The notes below the pieces were generated by a model. That model had not been told where the DNA came from. It saw only the letters and a program-made list of their open reading frames with translations, and ran no database searches. Below, one piece after another: positions 25,524 through 59,209 of a DNA stretch of 64,000 bases (the stretch's first letter is position 1; every line of letters begins with the position of its first letter). The position numbers were made by a program, and so were the translations under genes. Source of the stretch: Thermoanaerobaculia bacterium (GTDB lineage Bacteria > Acidobacteriota > Thermoanaerobaculia > Multivoradales > UBA5704); contig DASQPA010000202.1 in NCBI GenBank assembly GCA_035644215.1, positions 4,162 through 68,161 of the forward strand, read 5' to 3'.

Positions 25524-25547
25524 GCGGCGTACCCCCGAGCGTACCTT

Positions 25548-26118
25548 CGCCCCTTCGGGGCTTTATTTTCTTGTGGTTACCCCAACCTGGGGCTCTCGCC
25601 CCAGGCTACCCACCTGCGCCCCTTCGGGGCTGTCTTCCCAGATAGGACGATCGATCTTGGGTCCCTTCACCTCGGCGGCCGGCAAGGATCAACCCTTGCG
25701 ATTCTGAGAGTTCTTCATGCGGCTACGCCGCACCCGAAGATGGATGAAAGGCGTATCCGCCTGCCACCCCCCTCCTGTCCTCCCCCCATCCCCTGGCACC
25801 CTCCCGCCCAGGGGGGAGGAACGCGGTAGTCAGCGTCGTCGTCGGGTGGTCAGAGCTCGAGTTGAAGCTGCCGATCGGGTCCCTCCCCCCTGGGTGGGTG
25901 TGAGGGTGGGGATGGGGGGAGGACAGGAGGGGGGTGGCACAGACGAGCGACGCCTAGCTCACAGGCTTTCGCCCCTTTGGGCACCTGGGCGGCGGCTGTC
26001 AAAGATCAACTACGATTGCTTGCGATTCTGAATCCGCCCCGAAGGGGCGCAGGTGGGTAGCCTGGGGTGCCAACCCCAGGTATGGTTAACCTCAAGAATC
26101 TACAGCCCCGAAGGGGCG
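25548..26118. repeat. nested palindromic composite element (about 83-bp terminal inverted repeats, 40-50-bp internal direct repeats, perfect 31-bp central stem)
   Basis: IR-L 25548-25630 is close to the reverse complement of IR-R 26036-26118; both contain two CGCCCCTTCGGGGC hairpins plus AGGCTACCCACCTGCGCC. DR1 is 25668-25707 and DR2 is 25982-26031 (CACCT.GGCGGC...GATCAAC...TTGCGATTCTGA). 25763-25793 is the exact reverse complement of 25908-25938 (31/31). Confidence 0.8.
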
Positions 26119-26320
26119 ACGGTAGTTTGAGACGTAACTGCCGTGGTCCCCTTTCAGGTTAAAGCCCCTCCTCTTCAACGCATCTCAGGCTCCTGGATGC
26201 CGATCGGAGGCCTCGGATGTCGATCTCAGGCCAGAGATCGCGATCCGAAGTCTCGGATATCTCTGGCGAGTCGCTTGGGCTCTCCGCAGGATGACGATGG
26301 GGAGGAGCGTGGCGAAACGA

Positions 26321-26935
26321 CCTCCGGAGAGGACGAACTCACCTCCGGCCGGCTCGGGAAACCCTCCGCGGGCGCCCAAACCCCCGAAAAGGCCTCCAAA
26401 AACTCTCCGGGTCGACTTCCTGCGTCTCCGGGTCGACTTCTGATCCCTCCGGCTCGACTTCCGACGCCTCCGGGTCGACTTTTTCCCTCTCCGGGTCGAC
26501 TTCCCATCCCTGGAAAGTCACTTTCGACGTCTCCGGGAAGACTTCTCATCCGTGGTGTTTTACTTTTCACGCGTGCAGCTCGACTTTCCGGGCGTGGAAA
26601 GTTACTTCCCAGGTGTCCAGGAAGACTTTCCGCGGTTTTGGAAGCTCCCGGAGGCCGTCCGGAAGCTCCCGGAGGGTTTCTGGAAGGTCCCGGAGGGTTT
26701 TGGGAACCTCCCGGAGAAATTTCGGCAGCGCCCGGAGGATCTCTGGAAGCTCCCGCAGACCGTCCGGAACCTCCCGGAGAGTCTCCGGAAGGACTTTGCA
26801 CGGGTGCCGGACGACTTTCCAGAGGTTCCGGAAGCGTCCGGAGACGTCCCGGAAGCACCCGGAGGCGCTACGGACTTTCCACGGGTTCCGGACGTTCCCG
26901 GAGGGGTTTCTGAAGATCCCGGAGGCTTTCGCCGC
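26321..26935. repeat. degenerate tandem array with strict 21-bp periodicity (about 29 units) in two inverted blocks
   Basis: Units like CTCCGGGTCGACTTCCnnnnn run from about 26405 to 26550. Units like nnnnGGAAGCTCCCGGAGnnn (the reverse-complement motif) run from about 26636 to 26930. The 21-bp phase is kept throughout, and several reading frames on both strands stay open for long stretches. Confidence 0.85.
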
Positions 26936-26939
26936 GTTC

Positions 26940-27572
26940 TTACGTCGCGGCCACGCGGGCCGTCGCCGTCATCATGCCCCAGGGCCAGGGCGCACTATAA
27001 GACTCGACCGCCACCTCGGCCAGGCCGGCGGCTTCGAGGAGCTGCCGGCACCGGGCCTTGCCGTAGATGCGCTGGTGCGCGTGATCGAACCGGCGCACGA
27101 TCCACTCGCAGATCCGGCAGGCCAGGAAGTCGGCGCACCAGTCGGTGATCACCAGGCGGCCGCCGGGCCGCAGGACTCGCCGGATCTCCTGCAGCGCCTC
27201 CTCCGGGTGCGGCCAGTAGTGAAAGGAGCTGATCGAGACGACGACGTCGAACGAGCCCGAAGGGTAAGGCAGGGCGCCGACGTCGCCCAGGGCGAGCGGG
27301 ACCGCCGGAGGAAGACTCGCCCGGGCGCAGGCGAGCATGGCGAGCGACAGATCGACACCGCAGAGCCGCGGCGCGGCGCTCTCCAGGACCAGTTCCCGGA
27401 GCAGGGCGCCGGTACCACAGCCGAGGTCGAGCAGCTGTTCGCCCGGGCGCAGGGCCAGGCGGGCCAGGGTGGCCCGCGTCGTCGCCCGGATGTAGCGCGC
27501 CCACCGCCGGTCGTAGACCGCCGCGAGCCGATCGTAGGTCTGGCGGACCGGGGCGTTGGCAGAGTTCCTCAT
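26940..27572 (-). CDS. class I SAM-dependent methyltransferase (Methyltransf_11/UbiE-like)
   Basis: YDRLAAVYDRRW..., LLDLGCGTGAL (motif I), FDVVVSISSFHYWP and RVLRPGGRLVITDW. Confidence 0.85.
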   Translation of the reverse strand: MRNSANAPVRQTYDRLAAVYDRRWARYIRATTRATLARLALRPGEQLLDLGCGTGALLRELVLESAAPRLCGVDLSLAMLACARASLPPAVPLALGDVGALPYPSGSFDVVVSISSFHYWPHPEEALQEIRRVLRPGGRLVITDWCADFLACRICEWIVRRFDHAHQRIYGKARCRQLLEAAGLAEVAVESYSAPWPWGMMTATARVAAT

Positions 27573-38589: not shown

Positions 38590-39489
38590 ATGCAGCTCAC
38601 GATCGAGCGGGTCGGCAAGGTCTACAAGGGGGGTGCGGTGGCGCTCTCCGACTTCACTCTGGAGATGGGGCCGGGGGTGCTCGGCCTCCTCGGTCCGAAC
38701 GGCGCCGGCAAGTCGACGCTGATGCGCATCCTGGCGACCATCACCCACCCCACCTCCGGGCGGGTGCTGTGGAACGGCGAGGACGTCGCCCGCTCCCCCG
38801 CCGCTCTCCGCGCCAGCCTGGGCTACCTGCCGCAGGACTTCGGGGTCTATCCCAACCTCACCGCGGTCGAGTTCCTCGAGTACCTGGCGGCGGTCAAGGG
38901 GGTGCCGGCCCGCCTCGCCCGGCCGCGCATCGCCGAGCTCCTCGCTCTGGTCAACCTCACCGAGGCGGCGCAGCGGCCGCTCGGCGGCTACTCCGGCGGC
39001 ATGCGCCAGCGGGTGGGGATCGCCCAGGCGCTCCTCTCCGACCCGCGGCTCCTGATCGTCGACGAGCCGACGGTGGGGCTCGACCCGGAGGAACGGGTGC
39101 GCTTCCGCAATCTCCTCTCGGACCTCTCCGGCGACCGCATCGTCATCCTCTCGACCCACATCGTCTCGGACGTCGAAGCCACGGCGACCGGGATCGCGCT
39201 CATCGACGGCGGCCGGCTGGTCGATCACGCCTCTCCCGAGGCGCTGCTCGCCGCCGTCGAGGGGAAGGTCTGGGAGTGCGTGGTGCCGAGCGCCGAGCTG
39301 CCGGCGGCCAAGGCGCGCTGGCTGATCTCCGGCACCGTCCGCCGCGGCGACGGCGTCCACGTGCGGGCGGTGGCCGAGACGCCGCCGTGCGCCGGAGCGC
39401 GGCCGCTGCCGCCGACCCTGGAGGACGCCTATCTCTACCGGTTGACTTCCGGCCGGGCCGGCGGGTCGAGCCGGAAGGCGGCGGCATGA
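38590..39489 (+). CDS. ABC transporter ATP-binding protein
   Basis: Walker A GPNGAGKST, signature YSGGMRQRVGIA, Walker B LLIVDEPTVGLD and H-loop LSTHI. The start is at MQLTIERVGKVY. Confidence 0.9.
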   Translation: MQLTIERVGKVYKGGAVALSDFTLEMGPGVLGLLGPNGAGKSTLMRILATITHPTSGRVLWNGEDVARSPAALRASLGYLPQDFGVYPNLTAVEFLEYLAAVKGVPARLARPRIAELLALVNLTEAAQRPLGGYSGGMRQRVGIAQALLSDPRLLIVDEPTVGLDPEERVRFRNLLSDLSGDRIVILSTHIVSDVEATATGIALIDGGRLVDHASPEALLAAVEGKVWECVVPSAELPAAKARWLISGTVRRGDGVHVRAVAETPPCAGARPLPPTLEDAYLYRLTSGRAGGSSRKAAA

Positions 39490-41045
39490 CCACCCGGCTC
39501 CTCTACCACATGGCCCGCGCCGACTTCCTGGAGCGGGCGCGGCGCTACAGCTTCCTGGTCACGGTCGCCGGGGCCGTCTTTCTCGGCTACATGATCAACG
39601 CCGGGAACGTCAACCTGTCGTTCCAGGACCAGCGCGGCATCCTCAACTCGGCCTGGGTGGGGACGCTCATCGGGCTCACCGCCGCCATGATGCTGCCGCT
39701 CTTCGGCTTCTACCTGGTGAAGAACACGCTGGAACGCGACCGGGAGACCCGGGTGGGCGAGATCCTCGCCGCGACCCCGCTCGGCAAGGCCGCCTACACC
39801 TGCGGCAAGACCTTGAGCAACTTCCTCTTCCTCGGCGTGATCCTGGCGATCCTCACCGCCGCCGGCCTGCTCCTCCAGATGCTCTCGGGGGAGGACCGCC
39901 ACGTCCACCTCGCGGCGTTCCTCCAGCCGATTCTCTGGATCGCCCTGCCGCCGATCGCGGTGGTGGCGGCGCTCGCCGTCCTCTTCGAATCGATCCGCTG
40001 GCTCCGCGGCTCGCTCGGCAACGTCCTCTTCTACTTCCTGTGGACCGGCTTGCTCACCGCGGCCCTCCTCTCGCCCGCCCTCGATTCACTCGGCTGGCAC
40101 CTGGTGCAGGACAGCCTGCTCCAGAAGGTGCCGTCGCTCCAGACGGTTGCCGCCGGCAAGGTGGAGCAGGCCTCCTTCAGCATCGGTCCCCACCAGGAGA
40201 TCCACAAGACGTTCCATTGGGACGGCATCGACTGGACCGCCGCGATCGTGGCCCAGCGGCTCGCGGTGGCCGCCGCAGCGGTGGCGGTGGCTCTGCTGGC
40301 CGCTTTCTTCTTCGGCCGGTTCGATCCGGCCAAGGAGGGAGGCCGGCTGCCCAGGGCGGCGTCAGAGGCGGAAGGGGAGGCCGGAGCCGAGGCCCGCCGA
40401 CCGCGGAAGCGCCGGATCGCGCTGCCCTCCGGGTCGCCGGCGAATCCCTTCCTCGCCCTGGTGGTGGCCGAGCTGCGCCTGATGCTTCAGGGGCGGAACT
40501 TCTGGTGGTACGTGGTGGCCGCCGGCCTCTTGGTGGCCGGGACCGTCTCCCCGCTCATCGCGATCCGCGTCGGCATCCTCCCCGCCGCCTGGCTCTGGCC
40601 GATCGGCCTCTGGTCCGGGATGGGAACACGGGAGAAGCGCTTCGGAACCGAGGAGCTGGTCTTCTCCGGCCCGCGCCCGGCGGCCTACGGCGGGGCGGCG
40701 ATCTGGACCGCCGGGGTGCTGGTGGCGGCGGGTACGACCTTAGGCGCCGGCCTACGGTTGCTCGCAAGCGGCGATGGACGATCGTTCCTGGCCTGGGTGG
40801 CCGGGTGTCTGTTCATCCCCGGGCTGGCCTTCGCGCTGGGGACGGTCTCGGGGACCAGCCGGCTCTTCGAGGTGATCTACCTGATGCTCTGGTACATCGG
40901 CCCGATGAACCACGTGCCGGCCTTCGACTACATGGGAGTGACGCCGCAGGCGCTGGCGCAGGGGATGCCGTGGGTGTATCTGGGGCTGACGGCGGGATTG
41001 GTGGTGGCGGGGCTTGCGGCGCGGGGGCGGTGGGGGCGGGTGTAA
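39486..41045 (+). CDS. polytopic ABC-2-type permease-like membrane protein
   Basis: Its ATG overlaps the ATPase stop (ATGA). It has many hydrophobic segments. Its 3' portion carries the left copy of the 60-bp duplication. Confidence 0.7.
   Translation: MTTRLLYHMARADFLERARRYSFLVTVAGAVFLGYMINAGNVNLSFQDQRGILNSAWVGTLIGLTAAMMLPLFGFYLVKNTLERDRETRVGEILAATPLGKAAYTCGKTLSNFLFLGVILAILTAAGLLLQMLSGEDRHVHLAAFLQPILWIALPPIAVVAALAVLFESIRWLRGSLGNVLFYFLWTGLLTAALLSPALDSLGWHLVQDSLLQKVPSLQTVAAGKVEQASFSIGPHQEIHKTFHWDGIDWTAAIVAQRLAVAAAAVAVALLAAFFFGRFDPAKEGGRLPRAASEAEGEAGAEARRPRKRRIALPSGSPANPFLALVVAELRLMLQGRNFWWYVVAAGLLVAGTVSPLIAIRVGILPAAWLWPIGLWSGMGTREKRFGTEELVFSGPRPAAYGGAAIWTAGVLVAAGTTLGAGLRLLASGDGRSFLAWVAGCLFIPGLAFALGTVSGTSRLFEVIYLMLWYIGPMNHVPAFDYMGVTPQALAQGMPWVYLGLTAGLVVAGLAARGRWGRV
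40821..40880. repeat. left copy of a 60-bp direct repeat (inside the permease gene)
   Basis: GGGCTGGCCTTCGCGCTGGGGACGGTCTCGGGGACCAGCCGGCTCTTCGAGGTGATCTAC matches 41854-41913 at 58 of 60 positions. Confidence 0.9.
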
Positions 41046-41126
41046 GGGGGGCTATCGCTGACGCGGCGCCGAGGTAGTACAGCCGCCGTGGGTGTATTTG
41101 CGGCTCAGCGACTCCGCAGGCTCCTC

Positions 41127-41432
41127 TTACCTGCGCAGATCGGCACCCTTGCGACGCGGCCGGAGATCCAGGGTCAGTTGCCATCCAATGGCTTGGGCAT
41201 AGCGCTCGAGCGTCGAGAGCCGGATGCTCCCGGCACTGTGTTCGATTCGGCTGATCGCCGATTTCTTCGTCTCCAGCCGCTGGGCGACCTGCTCCTGCGT
41301 CAGGCCGGCCTTTTCTCGGGCCTGCCGAAGCAGGGCACCGACCTTGAAATCCTCATAGCCCGCCTCCAGGTTGTCCGCAAACTCAGGATCGCGTGCCGCC
41401 CGCGCCCTCGCGTACTTAGTTAGATCGCTCAT
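41127..41432 (-). CDS. higA: XRE-family HTH antitoxin (HigA-like)
   Basis: LRQAREKAGLTQEQVAQRLETKKSAISRIE is the Cro/C1 HTH. It overlaps the upstream toxin gene by 17 nt. Confidence 0.85.
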   Translation of the reverse strand: MSDLTKYARARAARDPEFADNLEAGYEDFKVGALLRQAREKAGLTQEQVAQRLETKKSAISRIEHSAGSIRLSTLERYAQAIGWQLTLDLRPRRKGADLRR

Positions 41433-41781
41433 GGTCTTGCCTCCTGCTCAGGTAGTCCTGCCGCCGCTTCTCGGCCAGCGTAATCTCCTGGTGCGGCGTC
41501 TTCTCGGTCTTCTTTGCGAAGCCGCTGGTGAGCACGAGCAGCCGGGCACCGTCGAAGAAGCCGATCAACCGGAAGGTGTCTCCACCGTGCTGCGCCCGTA
41601 CCTCCCATAGGTCCCTTGTGCCGACCAGCTTCTTGAGATACTGCGAGGGTACCGTCTCTAACTCTTCCACCAAGCGCAGAACCCAGACCACCTTCTGGGC
41701 CTGCTTGCCACTGAGCGCATCAAGGAACTCTCCAACGGGACAGTGGCCCGCCTGGGTCCGGTAGAAGCGGACTTCGCGCAC
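41416..41781 (-). CDS. higB: RelE/ParE-superfamily toxin, phage Gp49-like (HigB-like)
   Basis: VRFYRTQAGHCPVGEFLDALSGKQAQKV...LKKLVGTRDLWEVRAQHGGDTFRLIGFFDGARLLVLTSGFAKKTEKTP follows the DUF891/Gp49 pattern. The toxin-first order is typical of HigBA. Confidence 0.85.
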   Translation of the reverse strand: MREVRFYRTQAGHCPVGEFLDALSGKQAQKVVWVLRLVEELETVPSQYLKKLVGTRDLWEVRAQHGGDTFRLIGFFDGARLLVLTSGFAKKTEKTPHQEITLAEKRRQDYLSRRQDHERSN

Positions 41782-41853
41782 TCGTCGAGGTTAACACAAA
41801 CGTGAACCTGACGCTAGGTGTGCCTGCGGGCTTCTGCGCCGCATTCACCTTCA

Positions 41854-41913
41854 GGGCTGGCCTTTGCGCTGGGGACGGTCTCCGGGACCAGCCGGCTCTT
41901 CGAGGTGATCTAC
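41854..41913. repeat. right copy of the 60-bp direct repeat (intergenic, upstream of higB)
   Basis: It is identical to 40821-40880 except for two substitutions. Homology stops abruptly on both sides. Confidence 0.9.
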
Positions 41914-42000
41914 GAGGATCTCCGCCCGCTGATTCCCGCGATTCATAGTGCTCTCACGGTCGTTTCTCCCGGGCAGGTGCTGCGACTGGGGACGTGAGCT

Positions 42001-42357
42001 TACGCTGGACCATTGTCTCGGGAGACGGGCCGTATCTGCTTACGCTGGACCATTGTCCCGGGAGACGAGCCGTATCTGCTTATGCTGGCCCATTGTCTCG
42101 GGAGACGAGCCGTATCTGCTTATGCTGGACCATTGTCCCGGGAGACGGGCCGTATCTGCTTACGCTGGACCATTGTCTCGGGAGACGGGCCGTATCTGCT
42201 TATGCTGGACCATTGTCTCGGGAGACGGGCCGTATCTGCTTACGCTGGACCATTGTCTCGGGAGACGGGCCGTATCTGCTTACGCTGGACCATTGTCTCG
42301 GGAGATGGGCCGTATCTGCTTACGCTGGACCATTGTCCCGGGAGATGGGACGTATCG
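42001..42357. repeat. tandem array, 40-bp unit x about 9, each unit with a GTCTC-GG-GAGAC palindrome
   Basis: TACGCTGGACCATTGTCTCGGGAGACGGGCCGTATCTGCT repeats head-to-tail from 42001, with units starting every 40 nt up to 42321. There are no spacers. The only variants are transitions at about 5 positions, and the last unit decays. Confidence 0.92.
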
Positions 42358-42385
42358 CAGACGATCGGTGTTGAACAGCCCACTC

Positions 42386-44977
42386 TCACTCGACATGGCA
42401 CTTTTCGACGACGTCATTGATGAGAGTCACCCATTCCCCCTCCCACCCGACCCACTCCCGAACGATCGACTCTTTTTCCGTCGCCAAGGCATCAGGCCCT
42501 AGACGGCCTCCGATCCTGGCGATCGAGTCGAAGCACAAACTGATAATCCCGTCCACCGGCGGCACATAGGTTTCGAGTGCGAGGTGAGCAGCGGCCGCGC
42601 TCGCCGGTACAAGGTTCTCGAGCTTCTTCAGCACGGCCGGCCAGAACTCTCGATGGACGAACCCCAGGGCTCGCAGGCTGCCCAGCCAACACCGCACGGC
42701 GTCTGGCAATACACCACGGTCTTCCTGGACTCGGCCCAACGCATACAACGAGTAACACGCTCCGCTCAGGTCGTGCTTGCGCAGGTAGAGTGTCACAACC
42801 CACTGGAACTGCTTCGCGGCTTTGTCGAGCTCCCCCTTACGATGAAGGACGTTCCCGATGCGCCTCGCTGCGCGCGGCATGCCGACCGGGTCGAGGTCGG
42901 CATCCGCACGCTCCAAGCTCCGGCCATATAGATCGGCGGCCTCTTCGAACTTACCCTCCTCGAAAGCCAGATCGCCAAGCGAACGGAGGCAGCGCGCGAT
43001 GCCGATCGCATCCGCGAGCGTTTCCGCGGCAGACAAGCTCTCTTGGTACAGCTCGCGTGCGGCTTCGCGCCGGTTCTGGCGCACCTCGATATGAGCGAGG
43101 CGGCGCAATGCCATGATTCCGCGCTTGGGATCATCTATCTCTTTGCAGAGCTCTATGCAGTGCACGAGATGGCTTCTGGCCGCTTCCAGCTTGCCGCGGA
43201 TGATCTCGATGTTACCGAGCTCCAACAGGAATCTACACTCGTCTTTTCTGCTATTCGCCTTGACTGCCGCAGCCAGCCCCTTCTCGCAAACGTACTTCGC
43301 CTGCGCAAGATAGCCACTGAGCCGGTTGGGCGGAACCAGCGAGAACCGATCCTGGCGAAGCACGAAGTGCCGGACCTGCATGGTGATGTCGACGAGATCC
43401 TTCCAGTCCTCCATGGTCGCGAGAAGATCCATGGCGCCAAAGATGTTCTTTTGCTCTCGGTCCAGTGCTCCATAGTTGTCCCAGGCTCTGCCGCCGTGCT
43501 GGCGCGTGATGCCCAAAAAGTGTATTACGAACTGTCGGCGCATCTCGTTTTGCAAGGACGGATTTTCCTGCAGCTTGGATTCGGCGAATTTCTTGGTGAG
43601 GGGATGGAGTTGATATCCTCGCATGGTGTCGGCCGTCTCCTCCGAGGCTTCGACGAGGATCATCTCTACGAGGGCTTCGATAGCCGCCTCGAGGCGCTCT
43701 TCTGTCAGCCCGGTGGTGGCGAGGAGAGAATCCCAACGGGCCGGGGCAGCGAAGATCGCGAGGCCACAGAGGACCAATCGGGCATCGTCACTCATCTCAT
43801 CCCAAAGATCTTCATAGAAGCTGAACGTCTCACCCTTGGCTCTGTCGAGAGCGTCCAGGATGCGGTCCAGCGACAAGCCTTTTTTGAACCGCGCCATCGC
43901 GAGCTTCATGAACAGCGGGTTGCCGCCGGTACGTTCCCAAATGATCCGTAACTTCGGCCTCTTCTTCTGGCCCGGATAATACCTGCTCCACTCGCTACGC
44001 AGCAGCCGCAGCGCATCCCCCTCCCTCATCTGGCCGACGGCAACGTGCGTCGCTTCAAGTTTCTCGAGCCGGCGACTCGCGATCAGCGCCTTGCTCGGCG
44101 GTGGCAAATCGCTCAGAAACGAGCTGATGGAAGAGCGGTCGCGTTCGATGGTATTGAAGTTGTCGATGATCACGAGGGTCTTCCACGTCTTCAGCAGGCG
44201 GTGAGTGAGCTGGACCTGATCGTACTCCTCCAGGTTGGCATTGTCTTGAAGAGTCCGCAAGATCGAAACCATCACATCCTGAAGGCTAAGGTCGGAATCC
44301 TTCGCAGTGTTGAACACCGCGGCATCGAAGATCCCGTCCTCGACCGCGACGTAGGCCGCCTGGATCGCGAGGCTCGTCTTCCCAATCCCGGCGATCCCTT
44401 CGATGGCCGTCAGCCAGGAACGGGGATGCTTGAAGCTCGCGATCACGGAGTCCAACTCCTGAGCTCGGCCGATGAAATCGGGCCGGTGTGGCAGGTGGAG
44501 GCGTGGCAAACGATCAGGAGCGGGTTCGGAGCCTGGATGCATCGCAGCGGGAGAATCCAGGCGCTTGAGCAACAACCGGATAAGGTGATCCTCGAGCTGC
44601 CTGGCGAACGCATGTATGCCGGCTTGACTCCTGTCGTTATACTTCAAATAGACGCGTGAGCCCAGCTCGCCAGGAATGGCTTGCTCATCCAGCGGTTCGA
44701 TGACGACCGGAACGATGTAGCCCTGTCCGCGATGCTTTTCCTTTTCGAGCGCCCACTGCAGCTCGGCCTTGACCCACGGTGACTTGACCGAGTCTCGACT
44801 GAGAAAGATGACCAGGCACGAGGTCCCATCGTCGATGGCCGCCTTGATACCTTGGCTCAAGGGTTCACCGGCAATCAATTCGTGCTCGTCCACCCAGGTC
44901 TCGAGATGGCTGAAATGCTGCCGCAGGGCATGGATCAAGGGCTTGTCTTGATTGCCGTGAGAGAAGAAAATCTTCAC
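42386..44977 (-). CDS. TIR domain / P-loop STAND (NB-ARC-like) NTPase / TPR-repeat protein
   Basis: VKIFFSHGNQDKPLIHALRQHF...CLVIFLSRDSVKSPWVKAELQWAL is TIR-like. Walker A is GIAGIGKTSLAIQAAY and Walker B is WKTLVIIDNFN. About 400 aa of TPR-like helices follow. The GTG at 44977 lies 8 nt after AGGAGG; the rest of the 1253-aa ORF is shadow. GC is about 53% in 43141-43260 (64/120, hand count). Confidence 0.85.
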   Translation of the reverse strand: MKIFFSHGNQDKPLIHALRQHFSHLETWVDEHELIAGEPLSQGIKAAIDDGTSCLVIFLSRDSVKSPWVKAELQWALEKEKHRGQGYIVPVVIEPLDEQAIPGELGSRVYLKYNDRSQAGIHAFARQLEDHLIRLLLKRLDSPAAMHPGSEPAPDRLPRLHLPHRPDFIGRAQELDSVIASFKHPRSWLTAIEGIAGIGKTSLAIQAAYVAVEDGIFDAAVFNTAKDSDLSLQDVMVSILRTLQDNANLEEYDQVQLTHRLLKTWKTLVIIDNFNTIERDRSSISSFLSDLPPPSKALIASRRLEKLEATHVAVGQMREGDALRLLRSEWSRYYPGQKKRPKLRIIWERTGGNPLFMKLAMARFKKGLSLDRILDALDRAKGETFSFYEDLWDEMSDDARLVLCGLAIFAAPARWDSLLATTGLTEERLEAAIEALVEMILVEASEETADTMRGYQLHPLTKKFAESKLQENPSLQNEMRRQFVIHFLGITRQHGGRAWDNYGALDREQKNIFGAMDLLATMEDWKDLVDITMQVRHFVLRQDRFSLVPPNRLSGYLAQAKYVCEKGLAAAVKANSRKDECRFLLELGNIEIIRGKLEAARSHLVHCIELCKEIDDPKRGIMALRRLAHIEVRQNRREAARELYQESLSAAETLADAIGIARCLRSLGDLAFEEGKFEEAADLYGRSLERADADLDPVGMPRAARRIGNVLHRKGELDKAAKQFQWVVTLYLRKHDLSGACYSLYALGRVQEDRGVLPDAVRCWLGSLRALGFVHREFWPAVLKKLENLVPASAAAAHLALETYVPPVDGIISLCFDSIARIGGRLGPDALATEKESIVREWVGWEGEWVTLINDVVEKCHVE

Positions 44978-45057
44978 TCCCTTCACCTCCTGGGGTCGAG
45001 ACGGCGGACGAGACGCTTGCCGCGACGAGCGGCCAAGCCGGCACTCGGAGGGGACGG

Positions 45058-55729: not shown

Positions 55730-55756
55730 GGGTGCGTTTACGCTATACTTTTCACC

Positions 55757-56071
55757 ATGGGCCCGATCGTTATCAACGCGGTTGCCTTTCAGGCGGATGG
55801 CATGTGGATCGCCCAATGCCTGGAGTACAACTTCGTCAGCTGCGCCACCACCCGAGACGAGCTACCCGGCGCCCTCATGCGGCAGGTCCTCGGTCAGATC
55901 GAGCTCGACCTGGAGGATGGCCACGAGCCCTTCTTCGAATTCAAGCCTGCCCCTGCCAAGTACTGGCAGCTGTTCGAAGAGGCGAAGCGTCAGTCAACGC
56001 CGATCCGGAAGTGGTCGGAGAGTGCGGAGCATACGAGGGTAGAGACCCAGCTCTTCCCCATTGCGGCTTAG
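55757..56071 (+). CDS. HicB-like (UPF0150-fold) small protein, orphan
   Basis: INAVAFQADGMWIAQCLEYNFVSCATTRDELPGALMRQV resembles the N-terminal HicB antitoxin fold pattern. There is no DNA-binding tail and no HicA gene nearby. Confidence 0.45.
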   Translation: MGPIVINAVAFQADGMWIAQCLEYNFVSCATTRDELPGALMRQVLGQIELDLEDGHEPFFEFKPAPAKYWQLFEEAKRQSTPIRKWSESAEHTRVETQLFPIAA

Positions 56072-56938: not shown

Positions 56939-57162
56939 CCGACCGACACCCTGCTCGTCGGTCATCGGCGTCATGCATTCGGTGATCGCCATCCTGCTCG
57001 CAGTCATCGACGCCATGCATTCAGTGACCGACACCCTGCTCGCCAGTCATCGACGGCATGCATCCGGTGACCGACACCCTGCTCGCCAGTCATCGACGGC
57101 ATGCATTCGGTGACCAACACCCTGCTCGCCGGTCATCGCCAGCATGTATTCGGTGACCGCCA
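56939..57162. repeat. tandem array, about 43-bp unit x 5.2, each unit with an imperfect palindrome centred on GCATGC
   Basis: Units start at 56939, 56982, 57024, 57067, 57110 and 57153 (partial). Consensus is GTGACCGACACCCTGCTCGCCAGTCATCGACGGCATGCATTCG. Across unit junctions, GTCATCGACGGCATGCATTCGGTGAC matches its own reverse complement at 20 of 26 positions. Confidence 0.88.
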
Positions 57163-57322
57163 TCTCCTTGCAGTTTGCAATCTCCCGCGCGTCCCTCCTT
57201 TGCAGCCTGCAACACCCCACTCTCTCCGCCGCGCCCCCTGATTTCCGCTAAGCTACACTCTTCAAAGAGTTTCCCCGATTCCGGGGAACCTGGTATCGCC
57301 GCTGCACCAGGGAGAGATCGCC

Positions 57323-59209
57323 ATGTTCGGACTACGAACCAAACTCGCCCTCGGCTTCGCCGGCCTCCTCGCCATCCTCGCCATCCTGGGATTGCAGAGC
57401 GTCGCCCTCCTCTCTCAGCTGGGGGGATCGATCGACGTCATCCTGCGGGAGAACTACAAGAGCGTCGTCGCCTGCCAGGAGATGAAGGAGGCTATCGAGC
57501 GGATGGACAGCGGTGCCCTCTTCGCCCTCGCCGGTGACGCCGGGAGGGGCCGCTCGCTGGCCGACTTGAACCGCCCGCGCTTTGAGAGCGCCCTTGCGAC
57601 CGAGCTCTCGAACGTCACCCTGCCGGGGGAGGGCGAGGCGGCGCACCGGCTGGACGGCCTCTACCAGAGCTACCGCGGCGTTCTGCCTGAGGTGCTCGAC
57701 GAGGCCCATCCGCTGACTGCGCGGCGGGAGATCTACTTCGGCCGCCTGCTCCCGGTCTTCCAGGACATCAAGACGACCGCCGACCGCATCCAGCAGCTCA
57801 ACCAGACGAACATGGTCGAGGCCAACGCCCGCGCCCGGCGCCGGGCGGCGGCGGCGAACGAGCGCATGGTCCTCCTCCTCCTTCTCGGGGCGGCGGTGGC
57901 GGTGGGATTCGTCTTCTTCCTCTCCCGCGCCATCCTCGTCCCCTTGCGGCGGCTGACCGAATCGGCGCGCGAGATCGAGGGCGGCAACCTGGATCTCGTC
58001 GTCCAGGTCGCCTCGCACGACGAGTTGGGGCAGCTCGCGGCGGCCTTCAATGCCATGGCGGCCAGCCTGCGCGAGCTGCGGCGGAGCGACCAGGCCCAGC
58101 TCCTGCGCGCCCAGCAGACCTCGCAGCTCGCCATCGACAGCCTTCCCGACGCGGTCGCCGTCTTCTCCGCCGAGGGGGCCGCGGGAGCGGCGGGGATCGT
58201 CGAGCTGGCCAACCAGACGGCGATCGCCACCCTGGGGCTGAAGCCGGGGGAGCCGGCCCCGGAGCGGCATGCCGAGTGGTTGAAGCCGCTCCTCGCCCAG
58301 GCGATCCGCGAGGGGACGATACCGGCGGGGGCCGAGCGCGGCCACGAGGCGGCCATCCAGCTCTTCCAGGAGGGCAAGGAGCGCTTCTTCCTGCCGCGGG
58401 CGAGCGCCATCCGAGACGGCCGTGACCGGCTGCTCTCGGTGATCCTGATCCTCGCCGACGTCACCGACCTGCGCCGCGTCGAGGAGATGAAGAGCGGTCT
58501 CCTGTCGACCGTCTCCCACGAGCTGCGCACCCCCCTGACCTCGCTCCAGATGGCGATCCACATCCTGATCGGCGAGGAGCAGGGACCGCTCACCCCACAG
58601 CAGACCGATCTCCTCCTTGCGGCGCGCGACGACGCGGAGCGCCTGCGCGAGATCATCGCGAGCCTCTTGGAGATCTCACGCCTCGAATCGCGGGAACGGT
58701 TCCTGCGCTACGCGCCGGTCGCGCCGCGCGACTTCATCGAGGAAGCCACCGAGGAATTCCGCTCCGCCTTCCGCGACCAGGGAGTCAAGCTCACCGTGGA
58801 GGTCGATCCGCGGGCCGAGCCGATGCTGATCGATTCCGCCCGCGCCCGCCTGGTGCTCGGCAACCTGCTCGGCAACGCTCTCCACCATACACCGCCTGGC
58901 GGCTCCGTCCAGGTGAGCGCCGAGCCACAGCAGGGCTTCGTCCGCATCGCCGTGGCGGACACCGGCCGCGGCATCCCCCTGGAACACCTTGGAAAGGTTT
59001 TCGATCGCTTCTACCAGGTGCCGGAAACCGAGGACCTGGGAGGCGCCGGGCTGGGCCTTTCGATCGCCAAGGAGATCGTCCAGGCGCACGGCGGCGAGAT
59101 CCACGTCCAGAGCCTGGCAGGGAAGGGGACGACCTTCTGGTTCACCCTGCCGCTGGCGAAAACCGCACCGGCGGCCGTCCCCACCGCCACCCACAGCGTC
59201 CCGGCCTGA
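57323..59209 (+). CDS. sensor histidine kinase (N-terminal TM/4-helix sensor, HAMP, PAS-like, HisKA, HATPase_c)
   Basis: HAMP-like LVPLRRLTESAREIEGGNLD. H-box SHELRTPLTS. N/G boxes LGNALHHTPPGG, DTGRGIP and GLGLSIAKEIVQAHGG. Confidence 0.9.
   Translation: MFGLRTKLALGFAGLLAILAILGLQSVALLSQLGGSIDVILRENYKSVVACQEMKEAIERMDSGALFALAGDAGRGRSLADLNRPRFESALATELSNVTLPGEGEAAHRLDGLYQSYRGVLPEVLDEAHPLTARREIYFGRLLPVFQDIKTTADRIQQLNQTNMVEANARARRRAAAANERMVLLLLLGAAVAVGFVFFLSRAILVPLRRLTESAREIEGGNLDLVVQVASHDELGQLAAAFNAMAASLRELRRSDQAQLLRAQQTSQLAIDSLPDAVAVFSAEGAAGAAGIVELANQTAIATLGLKPGEPAPERHAEWLKPLLAQAIREGTIPAGAERGHEAAIQLFQEGKERFFLPRASAIRDGRDRLLSVILILADVTDLRRVEEMKSGLLSTVSHELRTPLTSLQMAIHILIGEEQGPLTPQQTDLLLAARDDAERLREIIASLLEISRLESRERFLRYAPVAPRDFIEEATEEFRSAFRDQGVKLTVEVDPRAEPMLIDSARARLVLGNLLGNALHHTPPGGSVQVSAEPQQGFVRIAVADTGRGIPLEHLGKVFDRFYQVPETEDLGGAGLGLSIAKEIVQAHGGEIHVQSLAGKGTTFWFTLPLAKTAPAAVPTATHSVPA

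What the first reader, a model, noticed from the sequence alone, without database searches (positions are those of the whole stretch)
42001..42357. Nine head-to-tail 40-bp repeats, each with a GTCTC-GG-GAGAC palindrome, between the TIR-STAND stop and higB
The unit length of 40 is not a multiple of 3, and all three plus-strand frames are open across the array, so a protein-coding repeat is unlikely. There are no spacers, so it is not CRISPR. Units differ only by transitions at a few fixed positions (for example C/T at position 3, T/C at position 18, G/A at position 28), which suggests recent amplification or homogenisation. Each unit carries a 5+5 palindrome. Across unit junctions a CGTA...TACG pairing is also possible, so either a reiterated protein-binding site or a reiterated small RNA fold is plausible. 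Read on the minus strand, the array lies upstream of a toxin gene (higB). This is formally reminiscent of type III TA loci, where a tandem-repeat antitoxin RNA (ToxI, 36 nt x 5.5) precedes the toxin. However, higB already has a protein antitoxin, so that analogy is speculative.
Basis: partly seen in the sequence, partly recalled or inferred. Interest (0 to 1): 0.75.

Follow-up and report, generated by a model that had tools for sequence, protein, structure and literature searches.

The report
Dispersed 40-bp minisatellite, not an antitoxin
The nine 40-bp repeats are real, but the same repeat also forms tandem arrays at other, unrelated places in what appears to be the same uncultured soil bacterium, so it is best read as a variable minisatellite and not as part of the neighbouring toxin or immune genes.

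Summary
Tandem Repeats Finder reports 9.0 head-to-tail copies of a 40-bp unit at 41998-42356, 95% matching. The array lies between the stop of a TIR/NB-ARC/TPR gene and a higB(Gp49)-higA pair.

The locus-specific readings do not hold. A metagenome scan with the unit core found the same 40-mer as tandem arrays at three more intergenic sites. One master unit is identical at all three. These sites have no shared flanks and no TIR-STAND or higBA:
- between a peptidase S10 gene and a peptidase M36 gene;
- upstream of a topoisomerase-like gene;
- between convergent pntA-like and membrane-protein genes.

One of these sites occurs in the same three samples as the window locus, in a Thermoanaerobaculia population.

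Copy number varies. At the S10 site it is 1.5 versus 2.5 units. At the window locus it is 2, 5 or 9 units, and short-read contigs end inside the array.

The closest TIR-STAND homologues (72% and 60% identity) carry no array. There is no terminator and no ToxN-type toxin. RNA folds are no better than shuffles, there is no covariation, and Rfam gives no hit. The GTCTC/GAGAC palindrome is not conserved across the family.

Best reading: a MIRU/VNTR-like interspersed minisatellite that grows and shrinks by slippage or unequal recombination. How it spreads between loci is unexplained. Interest is modest.

The parts
41998..42356 (.). Tandem array of 9.0 copies of a 40-bp unit. The + strand consensus is GCTTACGCTGGACCATTGTCTCGGGAGACGGGCCGTATCT. 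It is one locus of a dispersed 40-bp minisatellite family.
   Evidence: TRF. The 40-mer occurs only here in the window and in none of 100 shuffles. The same unit forms arrays in L012, L013 and L015 (=L014). A unit HMM finds no solitary copies.
41988..41997 (.). Degenerate partial unit at the left edge. GGGGACGTGA resembles the unit end GGGCCGTATCT. Its last three bases, TGA at 41995-41997, are the stop codon of the ORF fragment that begins in the ectopic 60-bp permease copy.
   Evidence: Read directly from the sequence. Low confidence. Degenerate edge units are clearer at the other loci, L013 and L015.
42357..42370 (.). Degenerate partial unit at the right edge. G-CAGACGATCGGTG resembles the unit start GCTTACGCTGGAC. 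Only 15 non-repeat bases separate it from the TIR-STAND stop codon at 42386-42388.
   Evidence: Read directly from the sequence. Low confidence.

Best explanation
The array is a non-coding minisatellite (VNTR). It is one locus of a small family of 40-bp tandem arrays scattered through intergenic spacers of an uncultured Thermoanaerobaculia (Acidobacteriota) lineage.

Shown:
- The same unit is arrayed at four or more unrelated sites.
- Units within an array are homogenised.
- Copy number changes in exact 40-bp steps.
- The array is not tied to either neighbouring gene.

Inferred:
- Units are gained and lost by replication slippage or unequal recombination between identical units. This also homogenises the array and leaves degenerate units at the edges.
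- Similarity between loci is kept by recent seeding or by ectopic gene conversion.
- At this locus the array simply fills the spacer between the TIR-STAND gene and higBA. It is probably transcribed passively as the 3'UTR or intercistronic RNA of the TIR-STAND message, because no terminator precedes it.
- It has no specific role in the toxin-antitoxin pair or in the STAND protein. Any effect would be generic, such as spacing or insulating the neighbouring genes or affecting mRNA 3'-end stability.
For: 1. Dispersal. A metagenome scan with GCTGGNCCATTGTCYCGGGAGAYGRG returned arrays of 2.5, 7.5 and 8.6 copies at three distinct loci; L014 is the same locus as L015. The unit GCTTACGCTGGCCCATTGTCCCGGGAGACGGGCCGTATCT is identical at all three. 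The flanking genes are unrelated: S10 and M36 peptidases, a topoisomerase-like gene, and a pntA-like gene convergent with a membrane-protein gene. The loci share no flanking DNA.
2. Same population. The S10 locus and the window locus co-occur in ERZ27253148, ERZ27253149 and Ga0137407. The S10 protein is named Thermoanaerobaculia bacterium. ORFs called across the L013 array (P0014, P0016) and the window-locus array (P0013, P0015) come from the same run, SRR5882724.
3. VNTR behaviour. The S10 locus has 1.5 units in L021 and 2.5 units in L012 and L022-24. The difference is exactly 40 bp, in an array shorter than the assembly k-mer. The window locus has 2, 5 or 9 units, and L016 equals window units 1-4 plus 9. 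Contigs L007, L008, L019 and L020 stop inside the array.
4. Concerted evolution. Window units share A at position 12 and T at position 21, against C and C elsewhere. L015 units share GAGCT.
5. No link to the neighbours. TIR-STAND homologues at 72% and 60% identity lack the array. A related genome has a different STAND gene and no array at this site.
6. No sign of RNA or operator function.
Against: - Membership of all four loci in a single genome is inferred from co-occurrence in three samples and from compatible composition. The tetranucleotide correlation is not discriminating. No binned or closed genome was available.
- Near-identity of units between loci, without shared flanks, target duplications or terminal inverted repeats, has no demonstrated mechanism.
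- The 2, 5 and 9 copy counts at the window locus could be short-read assembly collapse and not real polymorphism.
- A neutral reading does not explain why a 13-nt core is shared with a 22-bp array family in another Thermoanaerobaculia MAG. That core was the search pattern, so the overlap is partly by construction.
- No expression or binding data exist.
Confidence: 0.68

Rival explanations
1. The arrays are phased binding sites for a lineage-specific DNA-binding protein. Each unit would offer one short inverted repeat (TCCCGGGA or GTCTC-GG-GAGAC) about every four helical turns, so a dimeric protein could coat the array cooperatively. This would resemble the 43-bp sopC centromere repeats of F plasmid, or iterons. 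The arrays would then act as architectural, insulating or partition-like sites at several places on the chromosome.
For: - The form fits: head-to-tail units of about 40 bp, each with a short inverted repeat.
- CCCGGG/TCCCGGGA and the CGTA..TACG junction repeat are nearly invariant over 19 distinct units.
- A 22-bp array family at two loci of another Thermoanaerobaculia MAG has the same TGTCTCGGGAGA core. Unit lengths of 22, 40 and 44 bp are near multiples of the helical repeat.
- None of the six arrays examined lies between divergent promoters.
Against: - No candidate binding protein is known. The 64-kb window has no parAB, rep, transposase or integrase gene.
- The core does not occur as a single site anywhere else in the window, even allowing one mismatch. 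A regulon-type motif is therefore unlikely.
- The GTCTC/GAGAC symmetry is broken in 22-25% of unit positions. One whole array (L015) carries GAGCT instead.
- Invariance within a young, homogenised repeat family says nothing about selection.
- The shared 13-mer was the search pattern itself.
Confidence: 0.14
2. The family is a small non-autonomous mobile or copy-and-paste element, in the sense proposed for MIRUs or for the minisatellite-bearing MITE of Porphyromonas. Under this view the arrays were seeded at new sites by transposition, or by template switching or gene conversion, and then expanded locally. This concerns the origin of the arrays. It is compatible with their being functionless today.
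For: - Units differing by only 0-3 bases sit at four or more unrelated sites, with one master unit identical at three loci.
- Relatives at 70-81% protein identity lack the unit in about 40 kb of syntenic or neighbouring sequence. This points to recent spread within one lineage.
- The arrays occupy most of each intergenic spacer.
- An ectopic 60-bp copy of permease coding DNA lies 84 bp from the window array and contains a near-core, GGTCTCCGGGACC. This shows past illegitimate recombination at this spot.
Against: - No terminal inverted repeats, target-site duplications or conserved flanks were found at any locus.
- No transposase or recombinase gene lies in the window.
- No clean empty site was available for comparison, because the orthologous spacers in relatives hold different genes.
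Confidence: 0.12
3. The minus-strand transcript of the array would be a repeat RNA that is processed into 40-nt units. It would act as an antitoxin or regulator for HigB, or for the TIR-STAND protein, in the manner of type III ToxI.
For: - The array lies upstream of a RelE-superfamily toxin gene on the same strand.
- A 40-nt unit is within the type III range of 31-62 nt (PMC3401426).
- A 22-bp array in another MAG also lies upstream of a TA pair, mntA-hepT.
- The minus-strand dimer folds slightly better than shuffles, with z = -1.74.
Against: - The same repeat occurs at sites with no toxin gene.
- There is no terminator between the array and higB, and no promoter-like site upstream of the array.
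- The toxin is Gp49/HigB and has its own HigA. It is not ToxN, CptN or TenpN.
- Nine copies is outside the known type III range of 1.9-5.6.
- Single units and the whole array fold no better than shuffles, with z from +1.0 to -1.4.
- There are no compensatory changes and no Rfam match.
- A 60-bp direct repeat brackets higBA and leaves the array outside that cassette.
Confidence: 0.03
4. The + strand ORFs that run through the array encode a real repeat protein. The 40-bp unit would be read in three successive frames, giving a 40-aa protein repeat.
For: All three + strand frames are open. Gene callers have called such ORFs in public assemblies: P0013 to P0016.
Against: - The only relatives among 5.8 billion proteins are ORFs across the same arrays.
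- The arrays sit in either orientation relative to the neighbouring genes.
- Copy number changes by single 40-bp units, which would shift the reading frame.
- The ORFs run antisense into the neighbouring genes.
Confidence: 0.01

Closest known systems
MIRU-VNTR loci of Mycobacterium (mycobacterial interspersed repetitive units; Supply et al. 1997, as summarised in PMC3184786)
   Same: - Units are 40-100 bp and arranged head to tail.
- The same unit is found at many dispersed intergenic sites of one genome, often between co-directional genes and directly abutting stop codons.
- The units contain short GC-rich inverted repeats and open reading frames.
- Copy number differs between strains.
- The mechanism of dispersal is unclear (for MIRU; here).
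   Different: - There is no sequence relationship, and the phylum is different (Acidobacteriota).
- Only four or more loci are known here, against about 40-50 for MIRU.
- Orientation relative to the flanking genes is not constant here.
- No overlap of unit ORFs with the start and stop codons of flanking genes was shown.
- No flanking tetranucleotide direct repeats were seen.
Type III toxin-antitoxin antitoxin arrays (ToxI, CptI, TenpI; PMC3401426)
   Same: A tandem direct array of roughly 40-nt units lies upstream of, and on the same strand as, an endoribonuclease-type toxin gene.
   Different: - There is no terminator between the repeats and the toxin gene.
- The toxin belongs to the Gp49/HigB family and has a protein antitoxin.
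- There are nine copies, against 1.9-5.6.
- The repeat also occurs at unrelated loci without toxins.
- There is no evidence of RNA structure.
REP/BIME extragenic palindromes of Enterobacteria and Pseudomonas (PMC3184786)
   Same: Short extragenic repeats of about 35-40 bp with internal dyad symmetry. They lie in 3' intergenic spacers and between convergent genes.
   Different: - REPs are stable stem-loops, present in hundreds of copies, singly or in alternating orientation, and linked to RAYT transposases.
- Here the stems are only 4-5 bp and no more stable than shuffles.
- Here the copies occur only as head-to-tail arrays, with no solitary copies in 64 kb.
sopC centromere of F plasmid and iteron arrays
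   Same: About ten to twelve direct repeats of about 43 bp, each with a short inverted repeat. The form is very similar.
   Different: - sopC lies next to sopAB on a plasmid and is a single locus.
- Here the context is an ordinary chromosome, there are several loci, and there are no par or rep genes in the window.
Minisatellite carried inside a MITE in Porphyromonas gingivalis (PMC4596501; title and abstract only)
   Same: A bacterial minisatellite present at multiple genomic sites.
   Different: That minisatellite is embedded in an element with terminal inverted repeats. No such shared flanks exist here.

Membership tests
Type III toxin-antitoxin (toxIN/cptIN/tenpIN) | Tandem array of nucleotide repeats (31-62 nt, 1.9-5.6 copies) upstream of the toxin gene | tested here: inconclusive
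   The unit length of 40 nt fits. Nine copies is outside the reported range (Table 2 of PMC3401426).
Type III toxin-antitoxin (toxIN/cptIN/tenpIN) | Short palindromic Rho-independent terminator between the repeats and the toxin gene | tested here: not met
   The scan of 41000-43000 found one terminator-like site, at 41247-41261 on the + strand. That is inside higA, not between the array and higB.
Type III toxin-antitoxin (toxIN/cptIN/tenpIN) | Toxin of the ToxN/AbiQ, CptN or TenpN family immediately downstream | tested here: not met
   The downstream gene is Gp49/HigB (PF05973, E = 2.4e-19), followed by an XRE-type antitoxin. PADLOC and NCBIfam give no ToxN-like hit.
Type III toxin-antitoxin (toxIN/cptIN/tenpIN) | The repeats co-occur with their cognate toxin gene | tested here: not met
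   The same unit is arrayed at three other loci with no toxin gene nearby.
CRISPR array | Direct repeats separated by unique spacers of similar length | tested here: not met
   Units abut with an exact 40-bp spacing and no spacers.
Interspersed minisatellite / VNTR of the MIRU type (kind, not sequence family) | Head-to-tail units of about 40-100 bp | tested here: met
   TRF gives period 40, 9.0 copies and no indels.
Interspersed minisatellite / VNTR of the MIRU type (kind, not sequence family) | The same unit at several dispersed intergenic loci of one genome | tested here: met
   There are four distinct loci with unrelated flanks. Origin in the same population is supported by co-occurrence in three samples. 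Origin in one genome is inferred, not proven.
Interspersed minisatellite / VNTR of the MIRU type (kind, not sequence family) | Copy number varies between strains in whole units | tested here: met
   The S10 locus has 1.5 versus 2.5 units, a difference of exactly 40 bp, in an array shorter than the assembly k-mer. The window locus has 2, 5 or 9 units, which may partly reflect assembly collapse.
Interspersed minisatellite / VNTR of the MIRU type (kind, not sequence family) | Sequence homology to mycobacterial MIRU units | not tested
   No MIRU sequences were compared. The phylum and unit differ, so I claim analogy only.
REP/BIME elements | The unit is an imperfect palindrome that forms a stable stem-loop | tested here: not met
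   Unit minimum free energies are -6.9 to -9.0 kcal/mol, with z from 0.0 to +1.0 against shuffles. The stems are 4-5 bp.
REP/BIME elements | Many solitary or alternately oriented copies across the genome | tested here: not met
   A unit HMM and a core-motif search find no copy outside the array in 64 kb. All copies are head to tail.
REP/BIME elements | Association with a RAYT (IS200/IS605-like) transposase | not testable with these tools
   The whole genome is not available. No such gene lies in the window.
Plasmid centromere (sopC-like) or iteron origin | Adjacent parAB/sopAB or rep gene, on a plasmid or in an origin context | tested here: not met
   The window holds ordinary chromosomal genes (purL, dprA, icd, secDF, relA, kdpA and others) and no Par or Rep domains. 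There is no blastn match in the plasmid or phage collections.

The most novel reading that the evidence does not exclude
The 40-bp arrays may be functional repeat loci and not neutral minisatellites. The same could hold for the 22-bp arrays with the same TGTCYCGGGAGA core in another Thermoanaerobaculia genome. Under this reading they form a class-specific system of phased sites for an unknown DNA-binding or DNA-processing protein, or templates for repeat RNAs. That same protein would seed, spread and homogenise them across intergenic spacers. This would be a new kind of host-maintained or selfish repeat system in Acidobacteriota.
Probability: 0.12. Interest if true: 0.55.

Novelty: new member of a known kind. 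Interest (0 to 1): 0.3.

Why it matters
- It removes a tempting false lead. A tandem repeat next to a toxin gene and an immune-type STAND gene looks like a type III antitoxin or a defence RNA, but here it is a generic repeat of the host lineage.
- It adds an interspersed, copy-number-variable minisatellite family in an uncultured Thermoanaerobaculia lineage, analogous to mycobacterial MIRU-VNTRs. I found no earlier report of this, though my literature search was limited. Such loci could serve as strain markers in metagenomes.
- It shows that these arrays break or collapse short-read assemblies. Four contigs end inside this array, and assemblies give 2, 5 or 9 units. This matters for MAG quality and for reading gene neighbourhoods.
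- How near-identical units come to be arrayed at unrelated sites without recognisable transposon features remains open, as it does for MIRUs.

Tried and rejected
- RNA element. Whole-array folds on both strands gave z = 0.18 and -1.39. Single units gave z = 0.0 to +1.0, and dimers gave 0.07 and -1.74. Rfam found nothing at gathering threshold or at E <= 10. Pair counts over 19 distinct units showed no two-sided changes. Rejected for lack of support.
- Type III TA. See the membership rows. Rejected.
- HigA or STAND operator. The core motif is absent elsewhere in the window, including the 216 nt upstream of higB. The array is absent next to TIR-STAND homologues. Rejected as locus-specific.
- Plasmid or phage origin. 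blastn against plasmids and phages found no match. Two pattern scans of viral contigs found none.
- Coding repeat. A search with the array ORF found only array ORFs. Exact look-ups of P0013 and P0014 found no contig.
- Shared mobile-element flanks. blastn among loci with the arrays masked found only short chance matches, apart from L014 = L015.
- Same-genome test by tetranucleotide composition. The array loci correlate at 0.79-0.89 with the window, within the window's own range of 0.75-0.91. An unrelated Streptosporangium locus also gives 0.79, so the test is uninformative.
- Empty-site comparison. Orthologous spacers in relatives (L017, L025, L026) hold different genes, so no clean filled-versus-empty pair was obtained.
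- Genome scan with two palindromic cores. It returned 22-bp and 43-bp arrays that share only the 13-mer searched for. Most are probably chance hits multiplied by tandem repetition. Only the Thermoanaerobaculia pair (L003, L005) is kept as a weak lead.
It was then reached through a homology search.
- HigB homologue neighbourhoods were not surveyed.

Full report
**1. The observation**

Tandem Repeats Finder reports one array at 41998-42356 with period 40, 9.0 copies, 95% matches, no indels and score 634. The consensus 40-mer is GCTTACGCTGGACCATTGTCTCGGGAGACGGGCCGTATCT.
- With up to three mismatches it matches eight times, all inside the array. It matched in none of 100 dinucleotide-preserving shuffles. 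The ninth unit has four mismatches.
- The units abut exactly, with no spacers.
- Three overlapping + strand ORFs cover the three frames across the array.

- Only five of the nine units have a perfect GTCTC-GG-GAGAC.
- The T/C change at unit position 21 switches the motif to a different palindrome, TCCCGGGA.
- Two of the six variable positions are transversions.

**2. Surroundings**

The window is ordinary chromosome at about 68% GC. It carries purL, dprA, an SRAP peptidase, acyl-CoA dehydrogenase, isocitrate dehydrogenase, SpoIIE phosphatases, yajC-secDF-relA and kdpA. It has no partition, replication, transposase or integrase genes.

Downstream of relA, on the minus strand, the order is:
- a TIR/NB-ARC/TPR STAND gene (42386 to about 44977) with lower GC of 57-62%;
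- 29 nt;
- the array;
- 216 nt;
- higB (Gp49 family, 41416-41781);
- higA (XRE HTH, 41127-41432).

An ABC-2 permease gene (39486-41045, + strand) converges on higA. No terminator-like or sigma-70-like site lies between the STAND gene, the array and higB.

A sharp 60-bp direct repeat brackets the permease 3' end plus higBA. One copy (40821-40880) lies inside the permease gene and the other lies at 41854-41913, at 97% identity. The array is left outside this bracket. Permease homologues align to the very C-terminus of the window protein, so the copy at 41854-41913 is an ectopic fragment.

**3. Is the array tied to its neighbours?**

The closest STAND homologues have no tandem repeat downstream. 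These are P0003 at 72% identity (next to relA but in the opposite orientation) and P0002 at 60% identity. A related genome has a permease 71% identical and conserved synteny on one side. At the same position it carries a different STAND gene (DUF4062-NACHT) and no array. The site is therefore a variable spot for STAND genes, and the array is not part of the TIR-STAND module.

**4. The decisive result: the same repeat elsewhere**

A scan of JGI metagenome contigs with the unit core GCTGGNCCATTGTCYCGGGAGAYGRG returned four stretches. Each holds a 40-bp tandem array of the same unit. L014 and L015 are the same locus from two samples, so three further loci exist:
- L012: 2.5 copies, starting 6 nt after the stop of a peptidase S10 gene and preceding a peptidase M36 gene.
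- L013: 7.5 copies, between an unknown gene and a topoisomerase-like gene.
- L015: 8.6 copies, between a pntA-like gene and a convergent membrane-protein gene.

Further points on these loci:
- The unit GCTTACGCTGGCCCATTGTCCCGGGAGACGGGCCGTATCT is identical in all three. The window units differ from it mainly by A at position 12 and T at position 21.
- Each array has its own shared variants and degenerate edge units. This is the signature of concerted evolution within arrays.
- With the arrays masked, the loci share no flanking sequence, inverted repeats or target duplications.
- Orientation relative to the neighbouring genes is not constant.

**5. Same organism?**

The window locus itself is found in ENA assemblies ERZ27253148 and ERZ27253149, in Logan run SRR5882724 and in JGI Ga0137407.
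- The S10 locus is found in ERZ27253148, ERZ27253149, Ga0137407, Ga0137404 and Ga0137403. Its protein is named as from a Thermoanaerobaculia bacterium MAG.
- ORFs called across the L013 array come from SRR5882724.
- Co-occurrence in three independent samples supports one population, although a single genome is not proven. Tetranucleotide composition is compatible but not discriminating.
- Relatives at 70-81% protein identity showed no unit in about 40 kb examined.
- The window itself has no solitary unit and no other copy of the core.

**6. Copy-number behaviour**

- At the S10 locus, one assembly has exactly one unit fewer than four others (1.5 versus 2.5). The array there is shorter than the assembly k-mer, so this is probably real polymorphism.
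- At the window locus, assemblies show 2, 5 and 9 units. The 5-unit version equals window units 1-4 plus 9, an in-register loss between identical units.
- Four short-read contigs end inside the array, from both sides. Some of the variation at the window locus may be assembly collapse.

**7. RNA and binding-site tests**

- Rfam has no match at gathering score or at E <= 10.
- The whole array, single units and dimers fold no better than dinucleotide shuffles. The z-scores run from +1.0 to -1.74, and none is convincing.
- Over 19 distinct units from four loci, the GTCTC/GAGAC helix is paired in only 75-78% of cells. The CGTA/TACG helix is almost invariant. No pair shows compensatory change.
- One array (L015) mostly carries GAGCT instead of GAGAC.
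- PADLOC and NCBIfam add nothing that links the neighbours to a repeat RNA.

**8. Comparison with known systems**

- Type III TA loci require a repeat array, then a terminator, then a ToxN, CptN or TenpN toxin (PMC3401426). The terminator and the toxin family were tested and not met, and the repeats are not confined to a toxin locus.
- CRISPR is excluded because there are no spacers.
- REP/BIME elements are stable hairpins present in many solitary or alternating copies. That was not met.
- sopC-like centromeres share the form but need a par operon and a plasmid context, which are absent.
- The closest analogue in kind is the mycobacterial MIRU-VNTR. These are 40-100-bp units in tandem at dispersed intergenic sites, with internal GC-rich inverted repeats, open frames and variable copy number (PMC3184786). 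This is analogy, not homology.

**9. Mechanism**

- Shown: the unit is arrayed at four or more unrelated sites, units are homogenised within arrays, and copy number changes in steps of 40 bp.
- Inferred: slippage or unequal recombination between identical units drives expansion, contraction and homogenisation.
- Inferred: similarity between loci reflects recent seeding or ectopic conversion.
- Inferred: at this locus the array is passively transcribed with the STAND gene and has no specific role for HigBA or the STAND protein.
- Unexplained: how the arrays reach new sites.
- Unexplained: why a 22-bp array family at two loci of another Thermoanaerobaculia MAG has the same 13-nt core. That core was my search pattern, so the overlap is partly by construction.

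**10. Verdict**

The feature is real and highly non-random. It is an interspersed minisatellite of the host lineage and not a component of the adjacent toxin-antitoxin or immune genes. It is a new member of a known kind. Interest is 0.3. The most novel reading still open is a functional, class-specific repeat system built on the shared core. I put that at about 12%.

Noticed in passing
window 40821-40880 and 41854-41913: A sharp-edged 60-bp direct repeat at 97% identity. The first copy lies inside the ABC-2 permease gene. The second is an ectopic fragment 808 bp beyond that gene's stop. Together they bracket the permease 3' end plus higA and higB. Permease homologues align to the very end of the window protein, so the first tail is native. 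The ORF fragment that starts in the second copy stops (TGA at 41995-41997) exactly at the first array unit. The repeat contains GGTCTC(G/C)GGGACC, close to the array core. It may be a scar of cassette insertion or of illegitimate recombination.
   Followed up: partly
window 25530-26940: A 1.4-kb non-coding stretch between two methyltransferase genes. It holds two Acido-Lenti-1 RNA motifs in inverted orientation: 25586-25631 on the + strand (47.7 bits) and 26035-26080 on the - strand (41.1 bits). They flank a long G/C-rich palindrome at about 25760-25950. Blocks of 21-bp tandem repeats follow: CTCCGGGTCGACTTCC-type units at 26403-26545, and the roughly reverse-complementary GGAAGCTCCCGGAGG-type units at 26634-26935.
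   Followed up: no
window 56941-57159: A second intergenic tandem array with a 43-bp unit, 5.1 copies and 87% matches, with a 21/22-bp sub-period. It lies between a small ORF (55730-56071) and a HAMP/PAS histidine kinase gene (57242-59209), downstream of a sigma-54 response regulator gene. Its unit is unrelated to the 40-mer.
   Followed up: no
L003 4146-4426 and L005 5404-5664 (Thermoanaerobaculia MAG149): A 22-bp tandem-array family of 11-13 copies. The unit GTCTCGGGAGATCGACGTTGAT is made of two back-to-back palindromes. It occurs at two unrelated loci of another Thermoanaerobaculia MAG and shares the TGTCTCGGGAGA core with the 40-mer. The L005 array lies upstream of an mntA-hepT toxin-antitoxin pair.
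   Followed up: partly
window 41100-45050; L011; L017 9551-13000: The spacer between relA and the ABC permease appears to be a variable spot for STAND NTPase genes. The window has a low-GC TIR/NB-ARC/TPR gene there. A 72%-identical homologue sits next to relA in the opposite orientation (L011). A related genome has a DUF4062-NACHT-FGE-sulfatase gene next to the orthologous permease (L017).
   Followed up: partly
L007 1, L008 1, L019 4816, L020 3177; L006 9706-9784; L016 5631-5830: Short-read metagenome contigs end inside the array from both sides. Other assemblies carry it collapsed to 2 or 5 units. The array is an assembly breakpoint for this population.
   Followed up: yes
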